From Dictyostelium discoideum (Eukaryota), in contig CM000150.2 of NCBI GenBank assembly GCA_000004695.1, positions 3,808,001-3,872,000 of the forward strand: a DNA stretch of 64,000 bases, read 5' to 3'. Of this stretch, positions 7,401 through 64,000 are shown in pieces (within the stretch, counting starts at the first letter, position 1; the number at the start of each line of letters is the position of its first letter). Under the pieces are notes generated by a model that was not told the origin of the DNA, searched no databases, and was given only the letters and a program-made list of their open reading frames with translations. The position numbers were made by a program, and so were the translations under genes.

Positions 7401-8336
7401 ATCTAAAATTGTATTTTTTTTTTTAAAAAATTTAATTCTTTTTTTTTAAAAAAAAAAAAATAAAAATAAATTAATAAATAAATAATTTATAAATAATTAA
7501 TAAAATATATATATTTATTATTAATATTTTTTATTTTTTTTTTATTTTTTTTTTTATTTTACTTACTTATCTTTTGCAAAAATAAAAATTCTAACAAAAT
7601 CAAAACAAAAATAAGCAGAAATTGCAACAACAACATGATTAATTTGACGAACTCTAAAATTATTAGTAATTTCATCTTGAGTGATTGGATATTTTACCAT
7701 ATTTGGTAAATAAGATAAAGCAATGAATAAACCAATTGAAACTATTGATAGGAAAATATTGATATGTTCAAGTACGAAATCAACTCTTTGATAAGTTTCT
7801 TTATATGCTTTTAAATATAATCTCTTTTTTTTATCTTCTTCAAAATTTACTATATCATTATTTTCAAATGAATTCTCATCAATTTCTTCGATTGAACCAT
7901 CTGAATCTGAATCTGAATCTGAATTCTCCAAATGTGATGATACACCCAATACAGTATCCTTTTGATGATTTCCTGTTAATTGTTGTTCATAAACTTCATT
8001 TTGATCTCTAAATGATTCATTATAAAATGATGATTGCTTTAAATAACCTTCATCATCAAATCTTGATTTATTAAAATCAACTTTTGGTATTATTTTATCT
8101 GCATTCAAATTTGGACTACTCCTATTAATTGATTCATTAATATTTACAATTTTACTAACTCTTCTTTCTCTAATTCCATTATTATTATCATTTAAATTAT
8201 TATTATTACTATTATTATTATTATTTTTTAAAATACTATTATTATTATTATTATTATTTTTATCACCATCACCTATATTATTTCCATTATTGATAATAGG
8301 GGATGGTGATGGCTTTTTTCCTTCCTCTTCATCCAT
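4473..8336 (-). CDS. Voltage/Ca-activated-type (BK/Slo-like) potassium channel alpha subunit; 2 exons approx 8336-7567 and 7437-4473
   Basis: Track ORFs 7563-8336(-) and 4473-7370(-) are linked by a GTAAGT donor at 7566 and an upstream AG acceptor. The S3-S4 region (DIITIVPILI.., LGFLRVLRILKAPRLFKLH with Arg every third residue) and the selectivity filter 'SLSTVGYGDITP' are present. The long C-terminus is RCK-like (VTIIGNIF..., VIILSNVDQP). A poly-Gln/His tract and a 250-aa Asn-rich N-terminus are also present. The exact exon 2 acceptor is uncertain. Confidence 0.7.
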
Positions 8337-9625
8337 TAAAGGTTGATAAAAATGATTTCCTAAAATTTTATTTCCCTTTTGAAAAAATCTAACTTGTCTC
8401 TATATTTTTTTTTTTTTTTTAAAAATAAACATAAAAATATTAATTATTTTTATCTTTAGATTATAAAAAAAAAAAAAAGGATCTTTATATTTTTTCTTTT
8501 TCTTTTTTTTTTTTTTTTTTTTCTCTTTATTTATTTAGTAATTTGATGTATTTGAGAAAAAAAAAAAAAAAAAAAAAAAAAAAGAAATTATTTTTGTAAA
8601 AAAAAAAATTTAAAAATAAATTATTTTGGTACCAAGGACCACTTTTTTTTATTTGGGGTCTGAAAATAAAAATATTTCGATTTCTTGTGAAAAAAAATAA
8701 TAAAAAAAATAAAAAAAAAAATGGAAAAAAATTTTTTTTTTTTAAATTCTTTTTTAATTTTTTTTATTTTTTTTATTTTTTTTATTTTTTTTATTTTTTT
8801 TATTTTTTTTTTTTAATTTAAGCCTGGTCATAAAAAGATTTATTATAATATGTTACAAAAAAAAAAACTAAATAAAAATGCAATTATTTTTTGATTTTAA
8901 ATTTTTTTTTTTTTTTTTTTACCATTTAAATAAATAATATAATAAAAATAAAATAAAAAACTTACACATTATAATAAAAATATTATTTATAATAATAAAA
9001 AAAAAAAAAAAAAAAAAAAAGTAAAAATTAATTTATATCTATAATTAAATAGTAAAATTTACTATTGTTTCAAATATATTTTATAAACAACGTGTTTAAT
9101 TTAGATAATTAAATTAGGTACCAAGTGTTTTTAGACAAAATAAAAATTAAATGGATAAAACAAAAAAAAAAAATAAAAAAATAAATAAAAAATTTTTAAA
9201 AATTAAAATTAAAAATAAAATAAAAATTATTATTTTTTTTTTTTAATTTTTCCTTTTATTTTAAATTTTTTTTTTTTTAAATCTCAGATCTGTGATACCA
9301 TATTCTTGAAACTAAAAAATATTTATATTTTTTATTTTTTTTTTATTTTTCATTTTTTTTTATAAAATTAAAAAAAAAATTAAAAAATAAAAATAAATAA
9401 TATTTATTTATTAGTTGGACTATTTTTATTTATTTATTTTTTTTTTTTTTTTGATCTATTTAATGGATTTTTACCACCCCTGAGCATATATAAAAAAAAA
9501 ATAAAAAAAAATATAAAAAAAATATAAATTACTTAATAATTTATATTATTATTCATATTATTTATACATAAATATATATATATTTTTTTTTTTTTATTAT
9601 TTTTTTTTTTTTTTTTAAATTAAAT

Positions 9626-53805: not shown

Positions 53806-54238
53806 GATCGAAATAATTTTTTATTTTATTTTATTTTTTTTTTTTTTTTTAATTAATTAATTTTTTTTTTTTTTTGAGACATAAAAAATTAATTAATTTA
53901 AAGATTAGTTTTTTTAAATCTAAATTGGAAATTAATTTCTTGGCGTCCAATTAAATCAATTTAATTATTTTTTAAATAAAATGGGATGGATTAAAATAAA
54001 TTATTTGTAGGAGAGTTATTTTAGAAAAAGTGTTAATATTTCATAATCAAACCACTCGTGTGTTGATCAAAAAAAATTTTTTTTCTTTTTTTTTTTTTTT
54101 TTTTTTTTCCTTTTTTTTTATTTTTTTTTTTTTTTTTTCCTTTTTATTTTTTTTTTTATTTTTTTTTTTTCAATTAAAATTTTTTAAAACAACTGCCACA
54201 ATATATCTATTTTTATTTTTTTTTTTTTGTGTGATATT

Positions 54239-54623: not shown

Positions 54624-57313
54624 ATGATATTTAAAAAATTATTTTCAAAAGGTAGTACATCACCAACAACAAGACCAAGAGGAGCTACATTTAGTGGTAC
54701 ATTTCCAACAGATGTATTAAGTGATGATGGTAGTGGTACCAATACAAATGGTTTATCAAATTCAACAACCAATCCATCATCAATACATTCAACACCAACA
54801 ACACCAACAACAACAGCATCAACTAATTTAACAAATTCAAATAAATTATCAACATTGGCACCAATTACAAATGGAAATCGATCATTAAGAGGTAGTAAAG
54901 ATGGTAGTGGTACTACAAAAGAGAGTAAAAAAAAAGTATTGACACTAAATGAAAAACAAAAATTATTATTAAAATCAATGGAATATATAAAAGGATCAGG
55001 TACTTATTATGGTAACTATATGGAATTCTATGAAATTCCAATTCAAATCTATGTTGGTACTGAACCATCTGAAACCTATCCATCATTATCATACAACACA
55101 GAGTTAAGATCATTAATATTGGATTTCAATAAAATCACTGAAATTCCTGAACAAATAGGCCTCCTTCCAAATTTAAAACATTTATCATTGGCTGCAAATC
55201 AATTGTCTCAAGTACCTGAATTTCTCTCACAATTAAAATCTTTAGAATCTTTAGAACTTGGTATTAATCAATTCACTAGTTTCCCTTTAAATATTTGTAA
55301 AATTAAATCATTAACTTTACTTCGTTTAGAAACAAATAATATTAAATCATTACCTGATGATTTTATAAATTTAGAAAATTTAAAGGTTTGTTTTTTTCAT
55401 TATTCTTTATTATTATTTTTACATATTTTAATTTATTAATTTTTTTTTTTTTTTTTAAATTTTAATTTTAGGATTTATCATTATTAGATAATCAATTAAA
55501 AGAAATACCAGATTCATTACCAAATAATATTGAAAAATTAAATTTAGGATGTAATGATATTATTAATTCTTATTCTAAATCATTAATTAGAATATCACAT
55601 AGTTTAACAACATTAAATTTATCAGAGAATAAAATTGAAGTTTTAGATGAATCATTATCATGTTTAGTTAATGTTAAAACATTAATATTAGATTGTAATA
55701 TGATTAAAGTTATACCAGGATCAGTATTAGGTTCATGGAAATCATTGGTAACTTTAAATTTACCACATAACTTTATTTCAGATTTACCTGCTGAAATAGT
55801 TACATTGGATAATCTTAGAATCATTGATCTTAGAGGTAATAATTTTGAATTTTGTAAAAATTATCCATCAAGTGAATCTTCATCAATTCTATTCAAAATT
55901 GAAGAGTTTATAAAAGATAAAGAGAAATTAAAATCTTTAATTTTAAAAGAAAATCTTGAAATTTTATCAAAATTAAAAGATGATAATTCAACTACTACTA
56001 CCACTAATATCAACTCTAATCTTGATGTACCAATTATTATTACAACAAATATTGAAACAATACCAACAACATCAACAACAGCTACAACAACAGAAACAAC
56101 AAATGATATCACCTTTAAAATATCAGATATAACTGAAATAATAGAAAAAACAGACACAACAACAACAACAACAACGACAAACCAAACCGATAATGTAAAA
56201 TTAGAAGAAAAAGTATATGAAAAACAAGAGAATGACGAAAATAATAGTGTAACATTAGAAACAACTACTACAATATCTATTGCATCTGATAATACTGATG
56301 AGGCATCTATTCAAATACCCCAAAAGGAAGATGGAGATAAAGAAAATCTTGAAAACGATGATAAATTACTACAAGAATCATTTTCTGAAAATAACAATAA
56401 CAATAACAATGAAAAACAACAAGAACAACAAGAGAATCCATTAAAAGAAAGCCAAGGAAAGATTCAGCAACTTGAAGAGGAATTAGAAAAACTTGAACAA
56501 AAACAACTTGAATTAAAAGATAAAATACGATTAGAGAAAATTAAATACCAAGAGATTCAACAACAATCTCCAAGATTATCTCAACAAGAAAACAATCAAG
56601 AAGCTATTGTTGTTAATACACAACCATCATCTCCACCACCAACAATTATTGTAAATGAACAAAAATCAGAGAAATTAGAAAATGAAAAACCAACTAAAAG
56701 AGAACAGCCAATGGTTGTAGTTACAAAAAATAATAATAAGGCAGAAGTTGAAATGACAGCACCTAATCAATTAATATTTTGGCAATCAATTGTACCAGAT
56801 TTAATTATTGATAAATTGTATTTAGGTTGTAGAGAATGTGCAATGAATAAATCTTGGTTAAAAGATAATAATGTTACTCATATTTTAACTGTTGCAAATT
56901 TTAAACCATTATATCCAGATGTATGTTAATTTTATTTATTATTAATTATTATTATTATTTATTTCCAAACTTGTATTAACTTTTTTATTTTTTTTTTTAT
57001 ATAAATTTCATTTTTTTAGTTATTCAAATATTTAATTATTAATATTGATGATGTTGATGAAGCAAATATTTATCAATATTTTAAAGAGATGAACACGTTT
57101 ATTGATGAAGGTAGAGAAAAAGGCGGAGTTTTAATTCATTGTAGAGCTGGTGTTAGTAGAAGTGCAACTGCAACAATCGCTTATATAATGATGAAAAATT
57201 CAGTTAAATTCCAAGAAGCATTTGATATCACCATAAAAGGTAGATCTAGAATTTATCCAAACAGAGGGTTCCTTAACCAATTAAAAAAATTTGAAAAAGA
57301 TTTATCAAAATAA
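54624..57313 (+). CDS. Second MPL-type LRR + dual-specificity phosphatase paralogue, ~834 aa; 3 exons approx 54624-55385, 55472-56920, 57020-57313
   Basis: The exon-intron architecture and intron phases are the same as the upstream paralogue. LRR and DUSP blocks are near-identical (active site HCRAGVSRSATAT; terminus …FKPLYPDV|LFKYLIINIDDVDE). The N-terminal Ser/Thr-rich region and the Thr/Gln-rich linker have diverged. The N-terminus also has RPRGATF. Confidence 0.8.
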
Positions 57314-57845
57314 AATAAAATAAAATAAAATAAAATAAACAAATACTTTCTAAAAAAAATTTTTGTTGGTTGTTCATTTATTTATAGTCTTTAAATTACA
57401 GGGACTTAATTTTTTTTATTGCCAAGATGCTGTTTTGGTTAAAGCGGCTGTGAATTTTATTTAAATTATGTTAAATATTATTTGACACAAATTTAAGATA
57501 ATTTTATATTGTAATGAAGTGAAAGAGGTTTCATTAGAAATGTAATGATTCACCATATTAAAACTAATATGGATTTATGTATTGATATATATTAATATGG
57601 AAATCATAAGGATCATAATATAATTCAGTTACTAGTCATAATCGACTTTAGAAGGCTAATCCTGGTACTCAAAAATTATAATATAAATACTCTAAAAGTA
57701 TTAAATAAAAATCATTGTGGTTTCTTTTCTATATTAAATATACAAATAAACTATTCATCTCTTATTTGTTTATCTTACTATATTAATTATATATTAACTT
57801 CAATAAAGAACTAAACCTGATTTTTTATTCAAAAAATATCACAAA

Positions 57846-57917
57846 TCCTTGTTGGTCTAGTGGTGAGGATTTTCGCCTGTCACGCGAAAGGCCCGGGTTC
57901 AATTCCCGGACAGGGAG
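57846..57917 (+). tRNA. tRNA-Asp (anticodon GUC), 72 nt, followed by a T5 Pol III terminator
   Basis: The cloverleaf was folded by hand. The acceptor stem is TCCTTGT/ACAGGGA with discriminator G. The D-arm is GTCTAGTGGTGAGGAT. The anticodon stem TTCGC/GCGAA has loop CTGTCAC (U33, GTC, A37). The T-arm is CCGGG-TTCAATT-CCCGG (GTTCAAT = T-loop). It resembles eukaryotic tRNA-Asp/Glu genes. Confidence 0.85.
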
Positions 57918-57932
57918 CTTTTTGGAATAAAA

Positions 57933-59146
57933 CTAAAATCCGAACTTCCGATTATTTATATTGCTATTCATATTATTAATAAATTTTGAATTTTGTTTTT
58001 TCTTTCTAATAATATAAATAGTTGAAATTAAAACTACAGCAACAAAAGCAGTACACCCAACGACGATACCAGCTATTTTTGTTCCAGATAAACTACTATT
58101 TGATTTTGAACAAATTGAATTATTATCTTCCGTGGAAGCTGAAAGTAATACTGAAAAGTCTGGATCTATTTTTGCTGATTTTTTAAAATTTGGGATTTCA
58201 ATTCCAATAAAAGATTGAGATTGATAAGAACTTTCAATAGGATTGAAAGTAGAATCTAATAATACATTTTCAATTGATTTGGCATTGTTGTCTATTAAAG
58301 CTCTTTTTATGAAACGACCATAGACTGAATGATTATCAACTTGAACCTTAGATAATTTGAATCGTCACCATTAGAAGTATTACCAAATTGTTTGGATGAA
58401 CAAATATCTTTGGTCTTTGATGATTCTAATAAAGTTGACATTACCAATTGTAAAGTATTCAATTGGCTTTTAAAATTGTACGAAGTCATTTCAATTGTAT
58501 ATTTCAAGGTTGATGGGTTCATTATTAAATTTTGATTTGCAAATTGAATTGATTTGGTTTGATTAAACCATTCAATTGTTACACTAATGTTTGTTACTTT
58601 GTTTGAACCAGATATAATATTGGTAAAATATTGATTGTATGGTAATTCTGGATAAATAGCAGAAATACTATCATAGTATTGACCTTTTATTATTTTTAGT
58701 AAAAAGAATAAAAAAAAAAAATTAATTAATTATTTAAATTAAATTGGAAAACGGTATTTTTTTTTTCCTTACCAAATGGATTATTAATAACAAGATCTTT
58801 TTTATTTGAAATATTTGATATTGATATTGTCAATGAATCGATATTTGTTGTAGTTGTAAAGCCAGACATTGTAATACTCATAATATTTGTATTATGTACT
58901 ATTGATGATGTGCAAGATATTGAATAACTAACCCCAACTGAACTATCATAAAAAATTGATGTATCCAATCCTTCAAGTTTTAAATATCCTGCTATATTGT
59001 AAGCTGAAAAAGTATTACTAAAACCATTAACCAAAACAGGACTTAAAGTTAAAATATCCGTAGCTAAATTAAAATAATCTTAGTATATGTTCAAAACAGG
59101 GTATATAAAAAATGATAATAATAAAAATAATAATAAATAATAATAA

Positions 59147-59193
<47 letters not shown>

Positions 59194-59592
59194 TTCATAC
59201 CGATACAACTAAGAACAAGTTTAATTTTAGAAGATGTTAAAGTTAAGAGTTCAAGAGTGAATTGAGGGGATCCTTGAACACGAGTTATTGTTACATTTAA
59301 TAATGATGATGTTTGGTTTTGTGAAATTTTATTAATTGAAACAGTGTATGTGTTAATGATAGGTTGAAGGGTTTCTGTACCTATATTGGTTCCATTGTCA
59401 TTTGTGTTTAAGAAAAAAAAAGTAAAACTACAAAATCCATCAGCTGCCTTTGTATATTTTTTATGTGGGGTATTTATTGGTGAAACATCTTGAACTGTGA
59501 TTTCTGATTTACCATTTTCAACTAAAATTAACAAAATTAGAAATAAAAAAATTTAAAGAAATAAAAAAAAAGAATAATTTTTTATTAATCAT
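57933..59592 (-). pseudogene. Type I membrane glycoprotein-like gene (signal peptide, many NxS/T sites, C-terminal TM + basic tail), at least 3 exons, with two apparent frame discontinuities (possible pseudogene or sequence errors)
   Basis: The minus strand has a signal-like ATG exon at ~59592 (MINKKLFFFFISLNFFISNFVNF) that is out of frame by 1 with the downstream ORF 59521-59201 (…ENGKSEITVQDV…KLVLSCI). A GTATGA donor at 59200 opens an (ATA)n intron. The ORF 59034-58755 (…VINNPF|GTAAGG) follows, then ORF 58680-58307 ending SMVVS*. A +1-frame ORF continues 58380-57933 (…RFIKRALIDNN…TKIAGIVVGCTAFVAVVLISTIYIIRKKKQNSKF…RKFGF*). The stop codon lies 16 bp from the tRNA-Asp 3' end, convergently. 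Confidence 0.4.
59113..59192. repeat. (ATA/TAA)n microsatellite within the first intron of the minus-strand membrane-glycoprotein-like gene
   Basis: Direct reading. The GTATGA donor lies immediately upstream on the minus strand. Confidence 0.8.
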
Positions 59593-60369
59593 TTTTTTTT
59601 TTATCACCAATTTTTAAAATAAAAAAAATAAAATAAAGTAAATTAAAAAATAAAATTGTTAATTTTAATATTTTTTATAATTTTATTGGTGACTAATCTT
59701 TAGTGATGAAATCGGTTATTTTTTTTTTTTTCCCCGAGATATTTTGGACTTAATTTTATATGGTTTTGGAAAAAAAAAAATAATAGAATAAATACAAAAT
59801 TTATATATTTTTTTTTAAAAAAAAATCACAATAAAATTGTTTTTTAATTTATTTTTTTTTATTTTTTGGTTGTGTTTTATTTGTTTTTTTTTTTTATTTT
59901 TTTTATTTTTTTTGGTTGTGTTTTTGTTTTATTTTTTTTTTTTATTTTTTTTCTTATTTTTTTTTTTTTGAATTCAAAAAGGAATAAATTACTTTATCAT
60001 TATACTGAATTATCTTTTGTATTTGGTAATATAGAAACAACAGCACTTATTTTTAACTTTAATTATTATTTTTGGTTAAATATTATTAATATTAGTTAAA
60101 ATTTTAATAGATAATAGTGACTTTTAAATTTTTAGAAATAACTACGATAAAAATTTTTTCACTAGAAACAATTAATATAAAATAATTTTTTTTTGGTAAA
60201 AAAAAAGGAAAAAAAAATATCTTTGATATTTCTAAAAAAAAAATATTAAAAAATTAATTTGGAACAGTTTTTTTTTTTTATTTTTTTTTTTTTATTTTTT
60301 GTGAAAATCAAAAATATCTTTTTTTTATATCCATATTATTTGTGTTATTCAAAAAATATATTAAATAAA

Positions 60370-62952
60370 ATGACAAAAAAAAATAATAATTATTTAAAAC
60401 ATGATAAAGTATTTGAAAAAAGATCAAAAAATAAAAACCTTGATGATTTTGGTTTTGAACCAGAGAAACCAAAAAAACAAATTCAAATAAAAACCAAAGA
60501 AATAATAAACAATCAACAAGAAGTAAATTTATTTTGGAAAATATGGAAAAATAAATATTTAAAAAGTTTAATATTAAATTTTTTAAAAACTGAATTAAAA
60601 GTTGGAGTTTATAGTTATGATGAAATTGTTAGTGTTCAATGGCTATTACAAAATAATTATATAGAACTATTAAAATATAAAGCAAAAAGGGGTGATTTAT
60701 TAGTAGACTTTTTCGATTTCAATGTTAAAGAATCAAAAAATAAAGAACCAAAAAATCTTTATAAGCAAATTAAAAATGATTTTCAATTATATAAAGATTT
60801 ATTCAAAAATTATCCAATGTACTTCACCCAACCCTATTATAAATATAATTGTTACAAGAATCATATGGTTGACCCAATTAGATTTGGTTTACATTTTCCA
60901 ATGAGTATAAAAGAGTATACATACAGAGAATCGATAGTGAATGATAATGTGGCACCATTCTCGTTATTGGAGTATGATAGAGTTGATATATTTTATCTAG
61001 CAATTGATTTTGGGTCAGTTGATATAGCCAAATATTTATTCAATACAAAATTGAAATCTCAAAAAAATGATATCAATGGTAAAGTTTGGAAGAATCATAC
61101 ATTTACAAATACAACATCAAATCAAACTCCAAAACATTATAATATTATAAACAAAATCGTTAAATTATTAATCATTGATTTGAAATTAATACCACCAAAA
61201 GAAATGAATAAAATTTGTCTAGATATTTTCCATGTTGATATTAAATCATTAACAGTTTCAGAACTCTATGAATGTTGTTTCACCATAGCAATATTATTAG
61301 AACAAACTCAATTCTTTAAAGATTATCAACTTCAAATTTCAAAAGGTACAATTATAGATAAATATATGAACTATACAGGTTATTTACAAAATTATTTACC
61401 AAATCCTTTAATTGATTTCTTAACTACCACTCAAATAAATGAAATGAAATCCATTCATAATTTAAATCAAACTTATTTAAGCTCAAAAGTAATTTCAATT
61501 TCAAAAGATGATGAAAATGTTTATAAATTAATTAAAATGTTAATACCATTTACAAATTATTCAAAAAGTTATAAAAATAACTTTTTTTATTTTAACTTTA
61601 AATATTCAAATAATGGATTATTAAATTTTAAAATTGTAAAAAAAGTTGAAGATATTTCAATTACAGAGGAAGAAAACAAAACAAATACTACTACTAGTAG
61701 TTTAATTCTAAAAGATTTTAAATTTGGTGATTCAATTGAAAATGTAATATTTGGTAATCAAGAATCTATAAATTCAAAAATTGAAAGTTTCAATAGTTTC
61801 GAAGATTTTCAAGAATTTACCAATAATCCAATAACAATTAAACCAAAAATTTTAATGACTATTCTATTAGAATTAAATAGATTAGATTTAATAATTCAAA
61901 CTTTAGATATCCTATTAAATGAAATACCAAAAGAAAAACTTTTTCCAGTTGGTTTATTAAATCATATAAAATCAATTGAAATTTTTGATTACCTTTTAAA
62001 TATTAAATCATTAAAGGATGAATTTTCATTTAGAAATTGTTTAGAAAATGATAAAGGATTAAATAATATTATGGAACATATTAAAACAAATCATTTTAAA
62101 TTATATTTAGATTTTTTAAATTCAATAGACCCAATTTCAAATACACCAATACATTATTCTTTTACTTCTTTAAAGTTTATTTATAAGAATATTAAAGATT
62201 TTCATAATTTTTATGAAAGAGTTGATATATGGACAAGATGGGATTATTTTTCATTAAGTATGGATGATTTCATTGAATTGGTTAAATTCACTCCAATTAG
62301 TCAAAAGTATTCATATTATTGTGGTACCACACTTAGAAATGATGATATGGTGTTAAAAAGATTACATTGGGTAAAGAAATATAGATCCTATGATTTATTA
62401 AGTGGTAGATGTGATAGAGAATATGGTAATAAACTGGGAATAGATACTGAAACAACAATTCACATTTACGATTACCTTTTTGGTGATATGAATAAATTAA
62501 AGACATTTCAAATTCCAATGGGTTTAAATAATAATTATGATCATTTAATAAATGTTACAGTTGATAACTACTTTTCAAAGGTTTTTAAATTAATTGGTTC
62601 TCGTGGTGATATTAAAGCATTGGAAATCATTATGGAAATTTTACAAAGTAAACCTATTGTAACTAATCTTTATTATAATTTCCTTTATCGTAATGTATTA
62701 ACTCCTATCATAGTGAAGGCTGTCAAAAATTGTAAATTTAATGTATTTGACTTTTTAAAGTTAAACTATCCTTGGATATTTGATGATACTTTGATAAATA
62801 CTCAAGAATTTGGTGATGGACAATTTAAAAGATATCTCAATGTTATAGCTTTATTAAGTACTGCAAGCCAAGCTGCTTCTGAAAATATAACTTTTAAGCA
62901 ACTTTTAAGTTCAAATTATTTTAATGAAATTACAAGAAAAAAACTATATTAA
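60370..62952 (+). CDS. Large Asn/Lys/Ile-rich hypothetical protein (~860 aa), no recognised domain; likely start at ATG 60370 (MTKKNNNYLKHDK)
   Basis: The long ORF 60259-62952 has an N-terminal 37 codons that are a poly-T translation. The first plausible ATG is at 60370. Composition and codon usage are coding-like throughout. Upstream exons cannot be excluded. Confidence 0.5.
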   Translation: MTKKNNNYLKHDKVFEKRSKNKNLDDFGFEPEKPKKQIQIKTKEIINNQQEVNLFWKIWKNKYLKSLILNFLKTELKVGVYSYDEIVSVQWLLQNNYIELLKYKAKRGDLLVDFFDFNVKESKNKEPKNLYKQIKNDFQLYKDLFKNYPMYFTQPYYKYNCYKNHMVDPIRFGLHFPMSIKEYTYRESIVNDNVAPFSLLEYDRVDIFYLAIDFGSVDIAKYLFNTKLKSQKNDINGKVWKNHTFTNTTSNQTPKHYNIINKIVKLLIIDLKLIPPKEMNKICLDIFHVDIKSLTVSELYECCFTIAILLEQTQFFKDYQLQISKGTIIDKYMNYTGYLQNYLPNPLIDFLTTTQINEMKSIHNLNQTYLSSKVISISKDDENVYKLIKMLIPFTNYSKSYKNNFFYFNFKYSNNGLLNFKIVKKVEDISITEEENKTNTTTSSLILKDFKFGDSIENVIFGNQESINSKIESFNSFEDFQEFTNNPITIKPKILMTILLELNRLDLIIQTLDILLNEIPKEKLFPVGLLNHIKSIEIFDYLLNIKSLKDEFSFRNCLENDKGLNNIMEHIKTNHFKLYLDFLNSIDPISNTPIHYSFTSLKFIYKNIKDFHNFYERVDIWTRWDYFSLSMDDFIELVKFTPISQKYSYYCGTTLRNDDMVLKRLHWVKKYRSYDLLSGRCDREYGNKLGIDTETTIHIYDYLFGDMNKLKTFQIPMGLNNNYDHLINVTVDNYFSKVFKLIGSRGDIKALEIIMEILQSKPIVTNLYYNFLYRNVLTPIIVKAVKNCKFNVFDFLKLNYPWIFDDTLINTQEFGDGQFKRYLNVIALLSTASQAASENITFKQLLSSNYFNEITRKKLY

Positions 62953-63045
62953 ATAAGAAAAAAAATAAAAAATAAAAAAAAAAAAAATAAAAATAATAAA
63001 AATAAAATAATAAAAAGGTATATTAAAAATTTAAAGAATTTGTTT

Positions 63046-64000
63046 TTATTTCTTTGACTTTGCAAAAGGATTATATTTCATTGGAACTTTAGCTGGTGGT
63101 TGATTTTTAGTATTACTATTGTTATTAAATTTATTTTTTTGTTGTTGTTGTTGTTGTTGTTGTGGTTGTTGTTGTTGTTGATTTCTGTTGATATTATTAT
63201 TATTATTATTTGACGCAACTAGAGTTCCTAGATCAGTATTATTACCTCCGCCACCATAATTATTAATATCAATTAAACTTGGGTCATTAAGGTTATTAAA
63301 ATCATAGTTATAACTATTATTATTGTTATTGTTATTATTGTTATTATTATTATTATTAAAACCATTGTTGTTATCATAACCACCATAGTTATTATTATTA
63401 TAGTTATTATTATTATTATTATTAAAACCATTGTTATTGCCATTGTTATAATTGTTGTTATAATTATTATTATAATTATTACCATTATTATTGCCATTGT
63501 TATAATTATTATTATAATTATTATTGTAATTGCTATTATAACCATTACCATTGTTATTGTTATTGTTGTAGTTATTTCCATTATTATAACTATTATTATA
63601 ATTATTATAATTGCTATTGTTATAATTATTGTTATTATTATAATTATTGCTATTATTACCATTATAGTTACCATTATTATTATAATTATTATTTTTATAA
63701 TTATTATTATTATTATAATTATTATAATTATTATAATTATTATTATTATTATTATTATTGTTATTATTATTGTTATTATTATTATTATTATTATTGTTAT
63801 TGTTATTATTATTGTTATTATTATTATATCTGTTATTATTATAATTTTGATTATTAAATCTATTATAACCAATTTGTTTATTATTATAACCACCACTACC
63901 AACATTACCAAAACCACCATTAAATTGTTGATTATCTTTATATTGATTTGAACCACCTAAAGAATTATTGACCATTCTATTGATAGCAGCATTTTGAGTA
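63046..64000 (-). CDS. Asn/Tyr/Gly-rich (prion-like) protein, C-terminal part; the ORF remains open past the right-hand window edge (partial)
   Basis: The 63046-63975(-) ORF is listed from an internal M, but the same frame has no stop up to position 64000 (…TQNAAINRMVNNSLGG…). Long NNYNN repeats lead to a poly-Gln then basic C-terminus (…KVPMKYNPFAKSKK*). Confidence 0.45.
   Translation of the reverse strand, partial: TQNAAINRMVNNSLGGSNQYKDNQQFNGGFGNVGSGGYNNKQIGYNRFNNQNYNNNRYNNNNNNNNNNNNNNNNNNNNNNNNNNNNNNYNNYNNYNNNNNYKNNNYNNNGNYNGNNSNNYNNNNNYNNSNYNNYNNSYNNGNNYNNNNNNGNGYNSNYNNNYNNNYNNGNNNGNNYNNNYNNNYNNGNNNGFNNNNNNNYNNNNYGGYDNNNGFNNNNNNNNNNNNNNSYNYDFNNLNDPSLIDINNYGGGGNNTDLGTLVASNNNNNNINRNQQQQQPQQQQQQQQKNKFNNNSNTKNQPPAKVPMKYNPFAKSKK

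What the first reader, a model, noticed from the sequence alone, without database searches (positions are those of the whole stretch)
57340..59600. tRNA-Asp locus: compositionally atypical 450-bp upstream block and a convergent membrane-protein gene ending 16 bp from the tRNA, with apparent frame breaks
The ~450 bp immediately upstream of the tRNA (57400-57840) lacks the homopolymer runs typical of intergenic DNA here and has mixed composition (…aatatggatttatgtattgatatatattaatatggaaatcataaggatcataatataattcagttactagtcataatcgactttagaagg…). In Dictyostelium, tRNA genes are the preferred targets of TRE5 (about 50 bp upstream) and TRE3 (downstream) retroelements, so this could be a retroelement remnant. 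On the other side, a minus-strand gene encoding a signal-peptide, N-glycan-rich, single-TM protein stops 16 bp from the tRNA 3' end. Its reading frame appears broken twice: after the signal-peptide ATG at ~59592, and again near 58340, where the frame with the SMVVS stop is followed by a +1 ORF encoding the TM and tail. This may be a decaying gene next to a transposon hotspot, or a sequence-quality issue.
Basis: partly seen in the sequence, partly recalled or inferred. Interest (0 to 1): 0.5.

Follow-up and report, generated by a model that had tools for sequence, protein, structure and literature searches.

The report
Decayed ComC gene beside tRNA-Asp
Next to an intact, conserved tRNA-Asp gene lies the broken remnant of a large Dictyostelium cell-surface (ComC-family) gene that public annotations still list as protein-coding; the odd 380-bp stretch upstream of the tRNA is real but could not be identified.

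Summary
The window matches Dictyostelium discoideum AX4 chromosome 1. The observations hold. tRNA-Asp(GUC) lies at 57846-57918. A convergent minus-strand gene (DDB_G0270998) stops 14 nt from it, and its reading frame is broken twice.

Orthologous loci from six other Dictyostelium assemblies explain the gene. D. cf. discoideum and D. citrinum carry an intact seven-exon gene of about 1,430 aa here. The AX4 copy has four lesions:
- a 16-bp insertion in the signal-peptide exon
- a 3.2-kb in-frame internal deletion
- a 1-bp deletion in the supersandwich-domain region
- a 185-bp deletion that removed the native stop codon and spacer, joining the ORF to the tRNA's conserved 3' flank

An independent assembly has the identical sequence, so these are not sequencing errors. 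Two public gene models bridge the 1-bp deletion with different, exon-like "introns". Two other isolates labelled D. discoideum have lost the whole gene.

The upstream block (57441-57823) is atypical in composition and has no counterpart at the orthologous site in any relative. It has no second copy, no protein or RNA-family match, and no TRE5-type tail. I could not compare it with Dictyostelium repeat consensus sequences, so a retroelement origin is neither shown nor excluded. This is an ordinary pseudogene that needs an annotation correction. Interest is low.

The parts
57846..57918 (+). tRNA-Asp (anticodon GTC), intact
   Evidence: ARAGORN. Rfam RF00005, 61 bits, E=4.9e-12. 100% identical in six Dictyostelium genomes at the syntenic site.
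57919..57923 (+). T5 run directly after the tRNA (Pol III terminator by position)
   Evidence: Read directly from the sequence. A T run of at least 4 is conserved in all six aligned loci. The terminator function is inferred.
57941..57952 (+). Conserved 3'-flank motif CGAACTTCCGAT, probably a degenerate external B box. On the minus strand it now supplies the relic ORF's last codons (R-K-F-G...).
   Evidence: Conserved in AX4, L004, L005, L006 and L009. D. firmibasis has GGGTTCGATTA at the same place. The external B box consensus is GTTCRAnYC, found ~41 bp downstream of 66% of D. discoideum tRNA genes (PMC3159450). The assignment is an inference.
57933..59592 (-). Relic of a ComC-family gene (annotated as DDB_G0270998). 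Exon 1 is 59592-59201, intron 59200-59064, exon 2 59063-58773, intron 58772-58684, exon 3 58683-57933.
   Evidence: Gene structure. Pfam ComC_SSD matches profile positions 57-222 of 222 only, E=6.4e-12. P0001 (DDB_G0270998) was reproduced exactly from the window. The orthologues are 1426 aa and 1439 aa.
59540..59555 (-). Lesion 1: a 16-bp insertion (TAAATTTTTTTATTTC), a near-duplicate of the preceding sequence, in the signal-peptide coding region. It causes a +1 frameshift and a TGA at codon 25.
   Evidence: Alignment A3 against L005 and L006, both of which lack it and read MINKKLFFFFISLILLVLVENGKSE in frame.
58631..58648 (-). Lesion 2: junction of a ~3,235-bp in-frame internal deletion (L005 4857-8092). 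The junction shows short sequence homology.
   Evidence: blastn shows window 57951-58636 matching L005 4162-4848 and window 58634-59199 matching L005 8096-8671. L006 gives the same pattern. The lost region encodes DUF7743, DUF7035, DUF7034, DUF7949 and the first quarter of ComC_SSD.
58348..58349 (-). Lesion 3: a 1-bp deletion (CTAAAGG to CTAAGG) inside the conserved GDDSNYLKVQVD motif. It causes a frameshift and a TAA at 58309-58307.
   Evidence: Alignment A2 against L005 and L006. Paralogues P0003, P0006, P0017 and P0030 read straight through this motif.
57951..57953 (-). Lesion 4: junction of a 185-bp deletion (L005 3977-4161). It removed the last two codons, the native TAA and the spacer between the gene and the tRNA.
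   Evidence: L005 and L006 end ...NSKLKN(I/L)K* and keep 185-260 bp between the stop codon and the tRNA flank.
58325..58383 (-). The 59-nt 'intron' used by the AX4 gene model to bridge lesion 3. It is an annotation artefact.
   Evidence: Reproduced. GC is 0.31, against 0.09 and 0.12 for the two real introns. It covers sequence that encodes conserved residues in homologues. The other pipeline uses a different 29-nt 'intron' at 58368-58340.
57441..57823 (.). Unique, compositionally atypical block upstream of the tRNA. Its origin is unresolved.
   Evidence: No homologue at the orthologous site in L004, L005, L006, L008 or L009. No other copy in the window or in L001-L009. No Rfam match. RNA fold z-scores are -1.4 and -0.4. 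The 72-codon open frame at 57596-57811 has no real protein relative.
57314..57440 (+). Conserved stretch after the stop codon of the LRR/dual-specificity-phosphatase gene, probably its 3' UTR
   Evidence: 81-84% identical to L004, L005 and L009. The gene call with DSPc ends at the position corresponding to 57313.
57824..57845 (+). Conserved tRNA-proximal upstream stretch
   Evidence: Homology with L004, L005 and L009 resumes at 57822-57824.

Best explanation
The locus holds a functional, strongly conserved tRNA-Asp(GUC) gene. Beside it, converging on it, is the dead remnant of a large ComC-family type I membrane glycoprotein gene.

The common ancestor of the D. discoideum / D. citrinum group had a seven-exon gene of about 1,430 aa here. 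Its architecture was signal peptide, DUF7743, DUF7035, DUF7034, EGF-like DUF7949, ComC supersandwich domain, transmembrane helix. About 200 bp of spacer separated it from the tRNA.

In the AX4 lineage the gene acquired four lesions:
1. A 16-bp slippage-type insertion that frameshifts the signal peptide.
2. A 3.2-kb deletion between short similar sequences that removed five of the six domains' worth of coding sequence.
3. A 1-bp deletion in the remaining supersandwich-domain region.
4. A 185-bp deletion that removed the stop codon, 3' UTR and spacer. The residual ORF now reads through the tRNA's conserved 3'-flank motif and stops 14 nt from the tRNA.

That last deletion explains the unusually tight convergent arrangement. 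Its breakpoint abuts a conserved motif, probably the external B box, which suggests that selection on the tRNA gene limited how far the deletion could extend (inference).

The 380-bp upstream block is lineage-specific DNA in a spacer that has turned over structurally in every relative examined. Its origin is unknown. The lesions and the orthology are shown. The order of the events, the mechanisms (slippage, microhomology-mediated deletion) and the absence of any protein product are inferred.
For: Identity of the window: the neighbouring ORF is identical to AX4 DDB_G0269920. P0001 (DDB_G0270998) is reproduced exactly from the window.

Orthologous loci were fetched through that neighbouring gene, and the tRNA-Asp lies at the same syntenic place in them.

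Intact long genes:
- L005 is 1426 aa and L006 is 1439 aa.
- All L005 exons are open.
- L005 has the full family domain set.

Lesions, each compared with both L005 and L006:
- 16-bp insertion.
- Internal deletion.
- 1-bp deletion.
- 185-bp deletion with loss of the stop codon.

AX4 keeps only ComC_SSD profile positions 57-222.

An independent assembly is identical over the gene. Within the 10 kb compared it differs only at two poly-T runs, at 54121 and 54241.

Two annotation pipelines rescue the frame with different exon-like 'introns' of 59 nt and 29 nt, with GC 0.31 and 0.35 against 0.09 and 0.12 for the real introns.

Two further isolates labelled D. discoideum have deleted the whole gene but retain spacer sequence that AX4 lacks, so their loss was an independent event.
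Against: No expression data were available, so a residual transcript or a short product from an internal ATG cannot be excluded.

On the AX4 branch the surviving coding sequence shows 12 synonymous and 18 non-synonymous changes. The intact L005 branch shows 12 and 14. There is therefore no clear signature of relaxed constraint. This fits recent decay, but it does not add support for pseudogene status.

The 3.2-kb deletion is in frame, so a shortened protein may have been functional for some time.

The origin of the upstream block remains unexplained.
Confidence: 0.88

Rival explanations
1. The frame breaks are sequencing or assembly errors, and the gene is intact in the organism.
For: Break 1 lies in T-rich sequence, where length errors are common. 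The two assemblies do differ in long poly-T runs elsewhere.
Against: An independently assembled genome (GCA_054883475.1) is identical across 57300-59700. Break 1 is a 16-bp insertion of mixed sequence, not a homopolymer length change. Break 2 is AAA to AA in ordinary coding sequence. Even with both breaks repaired, the gene still lacks 3.2 kb of coding sequence and its native stop codon.
Confidence: 0.02
2. DDB_G0270998 is a functional short gene as annotated (266 or 420 aa). The frameshifted stretch would have become a genuine intron, giving a truncated membrane protein carrying part of the supersandwich domain.
For: GT...AG boundaries exist for the bridging 'introns'. The 3.2-kb deletion is in frame. 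The substitution pattern does not show obvious relaxation. The C-terminal TM and tail ORF is still open.
Against: - The two pipelines chose different 'introns'.
- One of them is 29 nt long. From my own knowledge, that is far below the length of known Dictyostelium introns.
- Both have exon-like GC and remove the conserved GDDSNYLKVQ motif.
- Both models start at internal ATGs without a signal peptide, which is incompatible with a type I membrane protein.
- The supersandwich domain is truncated.
- Related isolates have deleted the gene altogether.
Confidence: 0.08
3. The 57441-57823 block is a remnant of a tRNA-gene-targeting retroelement: a TRE5 fragment, a DGLT-A/H3R solo LTR, or an uncatalogued element.
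For: - From the literature: 61% of D. discoideum tRNA genes carry a TRE. DGLT-A sits 13-33 bp upstream and TRE5-A 47±3 bp upstream, with a range of 37-211 bp (PMC5006619, PMC5391098).
- The block's proximal boundary is 22-27 bp upstream of the tRNA.
- The block is absent from the orthologous site in all relatives, and its composition is mixed and free of homopolymers.
- D. citrinum has a retroelement-like ORF fragment in the expected orientation in the same spacer. This was judged by eye only.
Against: - There is no oligo(T) at the distal boundary, which a TRE5 with its 5' end facing the tRNA would leave. The T8 at 57411-57418 lies in sequence shared with isolates that lack the block.
- At ~380 bp the block does not match the 265-bp DGLT-A LTR.
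- No convincing target-site duplication or TG...CA ends were seen.
- There is no second copy in the window or in nine loci, ~250 kb in all.
- The 72-codon open frame has no relative among 1.84 billion protein representatives.
Confidence: 0.2
4. The block is ordinary single-copy spacer DNA. It would be either ancestral sequence retained in AX4 and lost or replaced elsewhere, or filler generated by local rearrangement, with no function of its own.
For: - The block is unique.
- It gives no RNA-structure or RNA-family signal.
- The spacer is a different sequence in every lineage: a (GTT)n microsatellite in two isolates, ~140 bp in D. cf. discoideum and ~1 kb in D. citrinum.
- A collinear global alignment with the D. 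citrinum proximal spacer scores z=3.8 above dinucleotide shuffles.
Against: That similarity is no better than background hits elsewhere in AT-rich loci, so orthology is not shown. The absence of homopolymers is uncommon for low-GC DNA here (4.3% of windows).
Confidence: 0.55

Closest known systems
ComC-family membrane glycoproteins of Dictyostelium (Pfam PF22933 ComC_SSD with DUF7035, DUF7034, DUF7949 and EGF-like domains)
   Same: The C-terminal half matches ComC_SSD and is followed by a single TM helix and a short tail. It is 44-66% identical to many family members. The syntenic orthologues are full-length family members.
   Different: The AX4 copy lacks DUF7743, DUF7035, DUF7034, DUF7949 and the first ~56 profile positions of the supersandwich domain. 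It carries two frameshifts and has lost its native stop codon.
Unitary (unprocessed) pseudogenes in fast-turnover cell-surface gene families, for example the tgr pseudogenes of D. discoideum
   Same: Disabling indels and deletions in a member of a large surface-protein family, with presence or absence differing between isolates. Birth-and-death dynamics and uncertain gene models are described for the tgr family (bioRxiv 10.1101/2025.10.22.684067).
   Different: This is a different gene family. In both public annotations seen here the locus is listed as a protein-coding gene, not as a pseudogene.
tRNA-gene-targeted retroelements of D. discoideum (TRE5-A, TRE3, DGLT-A/H3R solo LTRs, Skipper-2)
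   Same: The unexplained block lies in the zone upstream of a tRNA gene that these elements target.
   Different: No hallmark of any of them was found: no tail, no matching LTR length, no target-site duplication, no second copy, no coding remnant. No sequence comparison with their consensus sequences was possible.

Membership tests
tRNA (Rfam RF00005), Asp-GUC | Cloverleaf with anticodon GTC that scores above the family threshold | tested here: met
   ARAGORN. Rfam score 61 bits against a gathering score of 29.
tRNA (Rfam RF00005), Asp-GUC | Functional gene: conserved among relatives, internal B box present, T-run terminator present | tested here: met
   100% identical in six genomes. GGTTCAATTCC fits the GTTCRAnYC consensus (sequence, consensus). 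A T5 run follows at 57919-57923. Expression was not tested.
ComC family (PF22933 ComC_SSD) | Complete supersandwich domain | tested here: not met
   Only profile positions 57-222 of 222 are matched. The L005 orthologue matches 4-222.
ComC family (PF22933 ComC_SSD) | N-terminal family domains (DUF7743, DUF7035, DUF7034, DUF7949) | tested here: not met
   Absent from the repaired AX4 translation. Present in L005. They lie within the 3.2-kb deletion.
ComC family (PF22933 ComC_SSD) | Uninterrupted ORF from the signal peptide to the TM helix and tail | tested here: not met
   Two frameshifts relative to L005 and L006.
Unitary pseudogene | Disabling lesions relative to an intact syntenic orthologue, and not attributable to sequencing error | tested here: met
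   Four lesions compared with two outgroups. Identical sequence in an independent assembly.
Unitary pseudogene | No functional transcript or protein | not testable with these tools
   No expression or proteomic data were available.
TRE5 non-LTR retrotransposon remnant | Located ~47 bp (range 37-211) upstream of the tRNA, with the 5' end facing the tRNA, so an oligo(T) on the + strand at the distal end | tested here: not met
   The block spans -23 to -405. Its distal boundary (57441) has no T run. The T8 at 57411-57418 lies in sequence shared with isolates that lack the block.
TRE5 non-LTR retrotransposon remnant | Sequence similarity to TRE5-A/B/C | not testable with these tools
   No Dictyostelium repeat library or whole genome was searchable. 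The indirect tests were negative: no second copy in ~250 kb and no protein relative of the open frame.
DGLT-A solo LTR (H3R) | A 265-bp LTR, 13-33 bp upstream of the tRNA | tested here: inconclusive
   The proximal boundary at -22 to -27 falls within the window. However, the block is ~380 bp long, and no clear TG...CA ends with a target-site duplication were found.
DGLT-A solo LTR (H3R) | Sequence similarity to the DGLT-A LTR | not testable with these tools

The most novel reading that the evidence does not exclude
The 380-bp block at 57441-57823 could be a solo fragment of an uncatalogued (or highly diverged) tRNA-gene-targeting element. On that reading, repeated element insertion and removal at this tRNA drove the structural turnover of both flanks, including the independent deletions that destroyed the neighbouring ComC gene in different D. 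discoideum lineages.
Probability: 0.1. Interest if true: 0.4.

Novelty: new member of a known kind. Interest (0 to 1): 0.15.

Why it matters
The main consequence is an annotation correction. DDB_G0270998 (UniProt Q55CS6) and its counterpart ACTFIT_007433 are listed as proteins, but they are gene-prediction rescues of a pseudogene. They should not be used in family alignments, domain statistics or knockout screens.

The locus also gives a clean, dated example of stepwise gene death in a large Dictyostelium surface-protein family. An intact orthologue, a partly decayed copy and a complete deletion are all seen among close relatives. It also shows that a tRNA gene and its short conserved flanks persist while everything around them turns over. 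None of this is surprising to a specialist.

Tried and rejected
1. My first repair of break 1, deleting one T from the T7 run, gave a plausible signal peptide. It was wrong: alignment with orthologues shows a 16-bp insertion.

2. The best-scoring paralogues (P0003, P0030) were fetched in the hope that they were orthologues. They lie in unrelated ComC gene clusters.

3. Exact look-ups of P0001, and of a mis-started neighbouring ORF, found nothing.

4. Block against the window and all held loci by blastn: only low-complexity hits.

5. Cheap-gap global alignments of the spacer with L004 and L005 fragmented and were uninformative.

6. Apparent homology of the block to the D. citrinum proximal spacer gave local z=5.7 and global z=3.8. 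I did not accept it, because permissive blastn gives equal or better ~60% hits at many unrelated AT-rich places.

7. The 72-codon open frame in the block gave nothing in Pfam. HMMER against 1.84 billion representatives returned only a spurious bacterial repeat protein.

8. The D. citrinum retroelement-like ORF was used as a query to reach TRE proteins and then their DNA.

9. An exact-pattern scan of metagenome contigs for a 22-mer from the block gave 0 hits.

10. No Rfam match, no RNA-folding signal and no DUSE motif in the block.

11. I tried to identify which AspGUC gene this is from the TRE5-A profiling table. The window's chromosomal coordinate is unknown, so the assignment stayed ambiguous.

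12. Polarised synonymous/non-synonymous counts were too small to show relaxed selection.
Full report
**What is there**

The window is Dictyostelium discoideum AX4-type sequence. The ORF at 60370-62952 is identical to AX4 DDB_G0269920. The AX4 protein DDB_G0270998 (P0001, 266 aa, 'ComC supersandwich domain-containing protein') can be rebuilt exactly from the window.

A tRNA-Asp(GTC) gene lies at 57846-57918 on the plus strand (ARAGORN; Rfam 61 bits). It is followed directly by a T5 run.

On the minus strand a gene starts at ATG 59592. It has two genuine AT-rich introns, at 59200-59064 (137 nt, GC 0.09) and 58772-58684 (89 nt, GC 0.12). It ends at TAG 57935-57933, 14 nt from the tRNA 3' end.

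**The frame breaks are real**

Reading from the ATG gives MINKKLFFFFISLNFFISNFVNFS and then a stop. The long exon-1 frame is offset by +1. A second shift occurs near 58349. The frame ending ...SMVVS* gives way to the frame that encodes the rest of the supersandwich domain, the transmembrane helix and the tail.

Paralogues from several species read straight through the second site as GNT(S/T)NGDDSNYLK(V/I)Q(V/I)D(N/D)HS(V/L)YGRF.

**Orthologous loci explain the gene**

I used the neighbouring gene DDB_G0269920 as an anchor and fetched the syntenic region from seven assemblies:
- an independent AX4-like assembly (L001)
- two divergent isolates labelled D. discoideum (L004, L009)
- D. cf. discoideum (L005)
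- D. citrinum (L006)
- D. dimigraforme (L007)
- D. firmibasis (L008)

The tRNA-Asp is at the same place in all of them except L007, and it is 100% identical.

L005 and L006 carry a long minus-strand gene between the tRNA and the DDB_G0269920 orthologue, of 1426 and 1439 aa. In L005 all seven exons are open. They encode DUF7743, DUF7035, DUF7034, DUF7949 and a complete ComC supersandwich domain, followed by a transmembrane helix.

Relative to both L005 and L006, the AX4 copy has four derived lesions:
1. A 16-bp insertion, TAAATTTTTTTATTTC (59555-59540), which nearly duplicates the preceding sequence. It frameshifts the signal peptide.
2. A deletion of about 3,235 bp. Window 58634-59199 matches L005 8096-8671, and window 57951-58636 matches L005 4162-4848. 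The junction at 58648-58631 lies in a short stretch that resembles both parental sequences, and the deletion is in frame.
3. A 1-bp deletion, CTAAAGG to CTAAGG, at 58349-58348.
4. A 185-bp deletion (L005 3977-4161). It removed the last two codons, the native TAA and the whole spacer.

After the fourth lesion the residual ORF reads through the reverse complement of the tRNA's conserved 3'-flank motif (CGGAAGTTCGG, giving R-K-F-G) to a fortuitous TAG. This is why the gene 'ends 16 bp from the tRNA'.

Even with both frameshifts repaired, the product would keep only profile positions 57-222 of the 222-position supersandwich domain.

**These are not sequencing errors**

The independent assembly GCA_054883475.1 (L001) is identical to the window across the whole gene and the upstream block. 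Within the 10 kb compared, it differs only in the length of two long poly-T runs, at 54121 and 54241.

**The public gene models are artefacts**

The AX4 model starts at an internal Met (58881). It bridges lesion 3 with a 59-nt 'intron' at 58383-58325.

The model in the other assembly (P0040, 420 aa) starts at ATG 59515. It has a 65-nt 'intron', and it bridges lesion 3 with a different 29-nt 'intron' at 58368-58340.

I reproduced both models exactly. The bridging 'introns' have exon-like GC (0.29-0.35) and delete residues that are conserved across the family. Neither model has a signal peptide.

**Independent loss in relatives**

L004 and L009 lack everything between the tRNA flank (window 57953/57954) and the promoter side of DDB_G0269920 (window ~59927-59935). 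L009 also keeps part of the ancestral spacer (L005 4056-4112), which AX4 has lost. The gene was therefore lost by a different deletion in that lineage.

These isolates are about 6% divergent in the neighbouring protein. That is far above the ~0.3% typical within D. discoideum (bioRxiv 10.1101/2025.10.22.684067). They are probably cryptic species.

Polarised substitution counts give 12 synonymous and 18 non-synonymous changes on the AX4 branch, against 12 and 14 on the L005 branch. This shows no clear relaxation of constraint, which is consistent with recent decay.

**The tRNA flanks**

About 22 bp upstream of the tRNA is conserved among the D. discoideum-group loci. Downstream, so is the motif (A/C)CGAACTTC(C/G)GAT, ending ~34 nt past the tRNA.

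D. firmibasis has GGGTTCGATTA at the same position. That is an 8/9 match to the external B box consensus GTTCRAnYC, which is reported ~41 bp downstream of 66% of D. discoideum tRNA genes (PMC3159450). I infer that the motif is a degenerate external B box.

The 185-bp deletion stops exactly at its edge.

**The upstream block**

The first ~127 bp after the phosphatase stop codon (57314-57440) is conserved with L004, L005 and L009. It is probably the phosphatase gene's 3' UTR.

Between 57441 and 57823 AX4 has 383 bp with no counterpart at the orthologous site. The other lineages carry different sequence there:
- L004 and L009 have a (GTT)n microsatellite.
- L005 has ~140 bp of unrelated sequence.
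- L006 has ~1 kb with GC 0.28.

The block has GC 0.21 and no A or T run of 6 or more.

I found nothing that identifies the block:
- No second copy in the window or in nine loci.
- No Rfam family.
- No excess RNA structure.
- No DUSE motif.
- Its one notable feature is a 72-codon open frame at 57596-57811. This has no Pfam match and no genuine relative among 1.84 billion protein representatives.

Known targeting rules from the literature:
- TRE5-A inserts 47±3 bp upstream (range 37-211), always with its 5' end towards the tRNA.
- DGLT-A has 265-bp LTRs and inserts 13-33 bp upstream. Eleven solo LTRs are known.

A TRE5 remnant should therefore leave an oligo(T) at the distal boundary, and there is none. 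The nearby T8 lies in sequence shared with isolates that lack the block. The proximal boundary (-22 to -27) fits the DGLT-A window, but the length does not, and I saw no clear LTR ends or target-site duplication.

An apparent collinear similarity to the D. citrinum proximal spacer was no better than background matches in AT-rich DNA, so I do not rely on it.

No Dictyostelium repeat library or genome was searchable, and my attempt to reach TRE sequences through a D. citrinum retroelement-like ORF failed.

**Verdict**

The 'decaying gene' interpretation is correct and now documented lesion by lesion. The 'sequence-quality' alternative is rejected. The retroelement origin of the upstream block remains open, with mostly negative indirect evidence.

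The overall picture is an ordinary unitary pseudogene beside a conserved tRNA gene in a structurally unstable spacer. It is useful as an annotation correction and of low general interest.

Noticed in passing
L006:2847-3143 (minus strand), within L006:2560-3150: In D. citrinum the spacer upstream of the orthologous tRNA-Asp holds a 98-codon minus-strand ORF with a C-x2-C...H-x4-C motif (LWRFVLKVLP...CNHC...EHIFFKC). It looks like the C-terminal zinc knuckle of a non-LTR retrotransposon ORF2, in the orientation expected for a TRE5-type element. Pfam and the word-index protein search found nothing, so this rests on visual inspection only.
   Followed up: partly
L004:8311-8540 and L009:8949-9090: Two divergent isolates labelled D. 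discoideum carry a ~140-230 bp (GTT)n microsatellite where AX4 has the unique block. In L004 an annotation pipeline called a 106-aa minus-strand 'gene' (8286-8861) across it and across the tRNA. That gene call is almost certainly spurious.
   Followed up: partly
window 54121 and 54241: These are the only differences between the window and the independent AX4-like assembly over 10 kb. They are length differences of 4 and 9 bases in long poly-T runs, so homopolymer lengths in such runs are unreliable in one or both assemblies.
   Followed up: yes
window 55700-57313 and upstream; L001:1049-6944: Two tandem LRR plus dual-specificity-phosphatase (DSPc) genes lie upstream of the tRNA. Their 3' ends, including the (AAATA)n run right after the stop codon, are 84-90% identical to each other, which indicates a tandem duplication shared by the D. 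discoideum-group loci.
   Followed up: no
window 59064-59200; L005 ~8560-8670; L006 ~8615-8960: Intron 1 of the ComC gene is an (ATT)n microsatellite that varies greatly in length between species: 137 nt in AX4 and several hundred nt in D. citrinum.
   Followed up: no
L008:8469-8541 and L008:13786-17833: In D. firmibasis the tRNA-Asp is still ~1.5 kb upstream of the DDB_G0269920 orthologue, but there is no ComC gene between them. A 1216-aa ComC_SSD gene lies on the other side of that orthologue. D. dimigraforme (L007) has no tRNA at this locus. The tRNA/ComC adjacency is therefore specific to the discoideum/citrinum group, or has been rearranged in the others.
   Followed up: no
window 62950-63400 versus L001:18068-18359: A ~300-bp stretch near window 63458-63758 matches, at 83% identity and in inverted orientation, a simple-repeat-rich region a few kb downstream in L001. 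It is probably low-complexity coding repeats.
   Followed up: no
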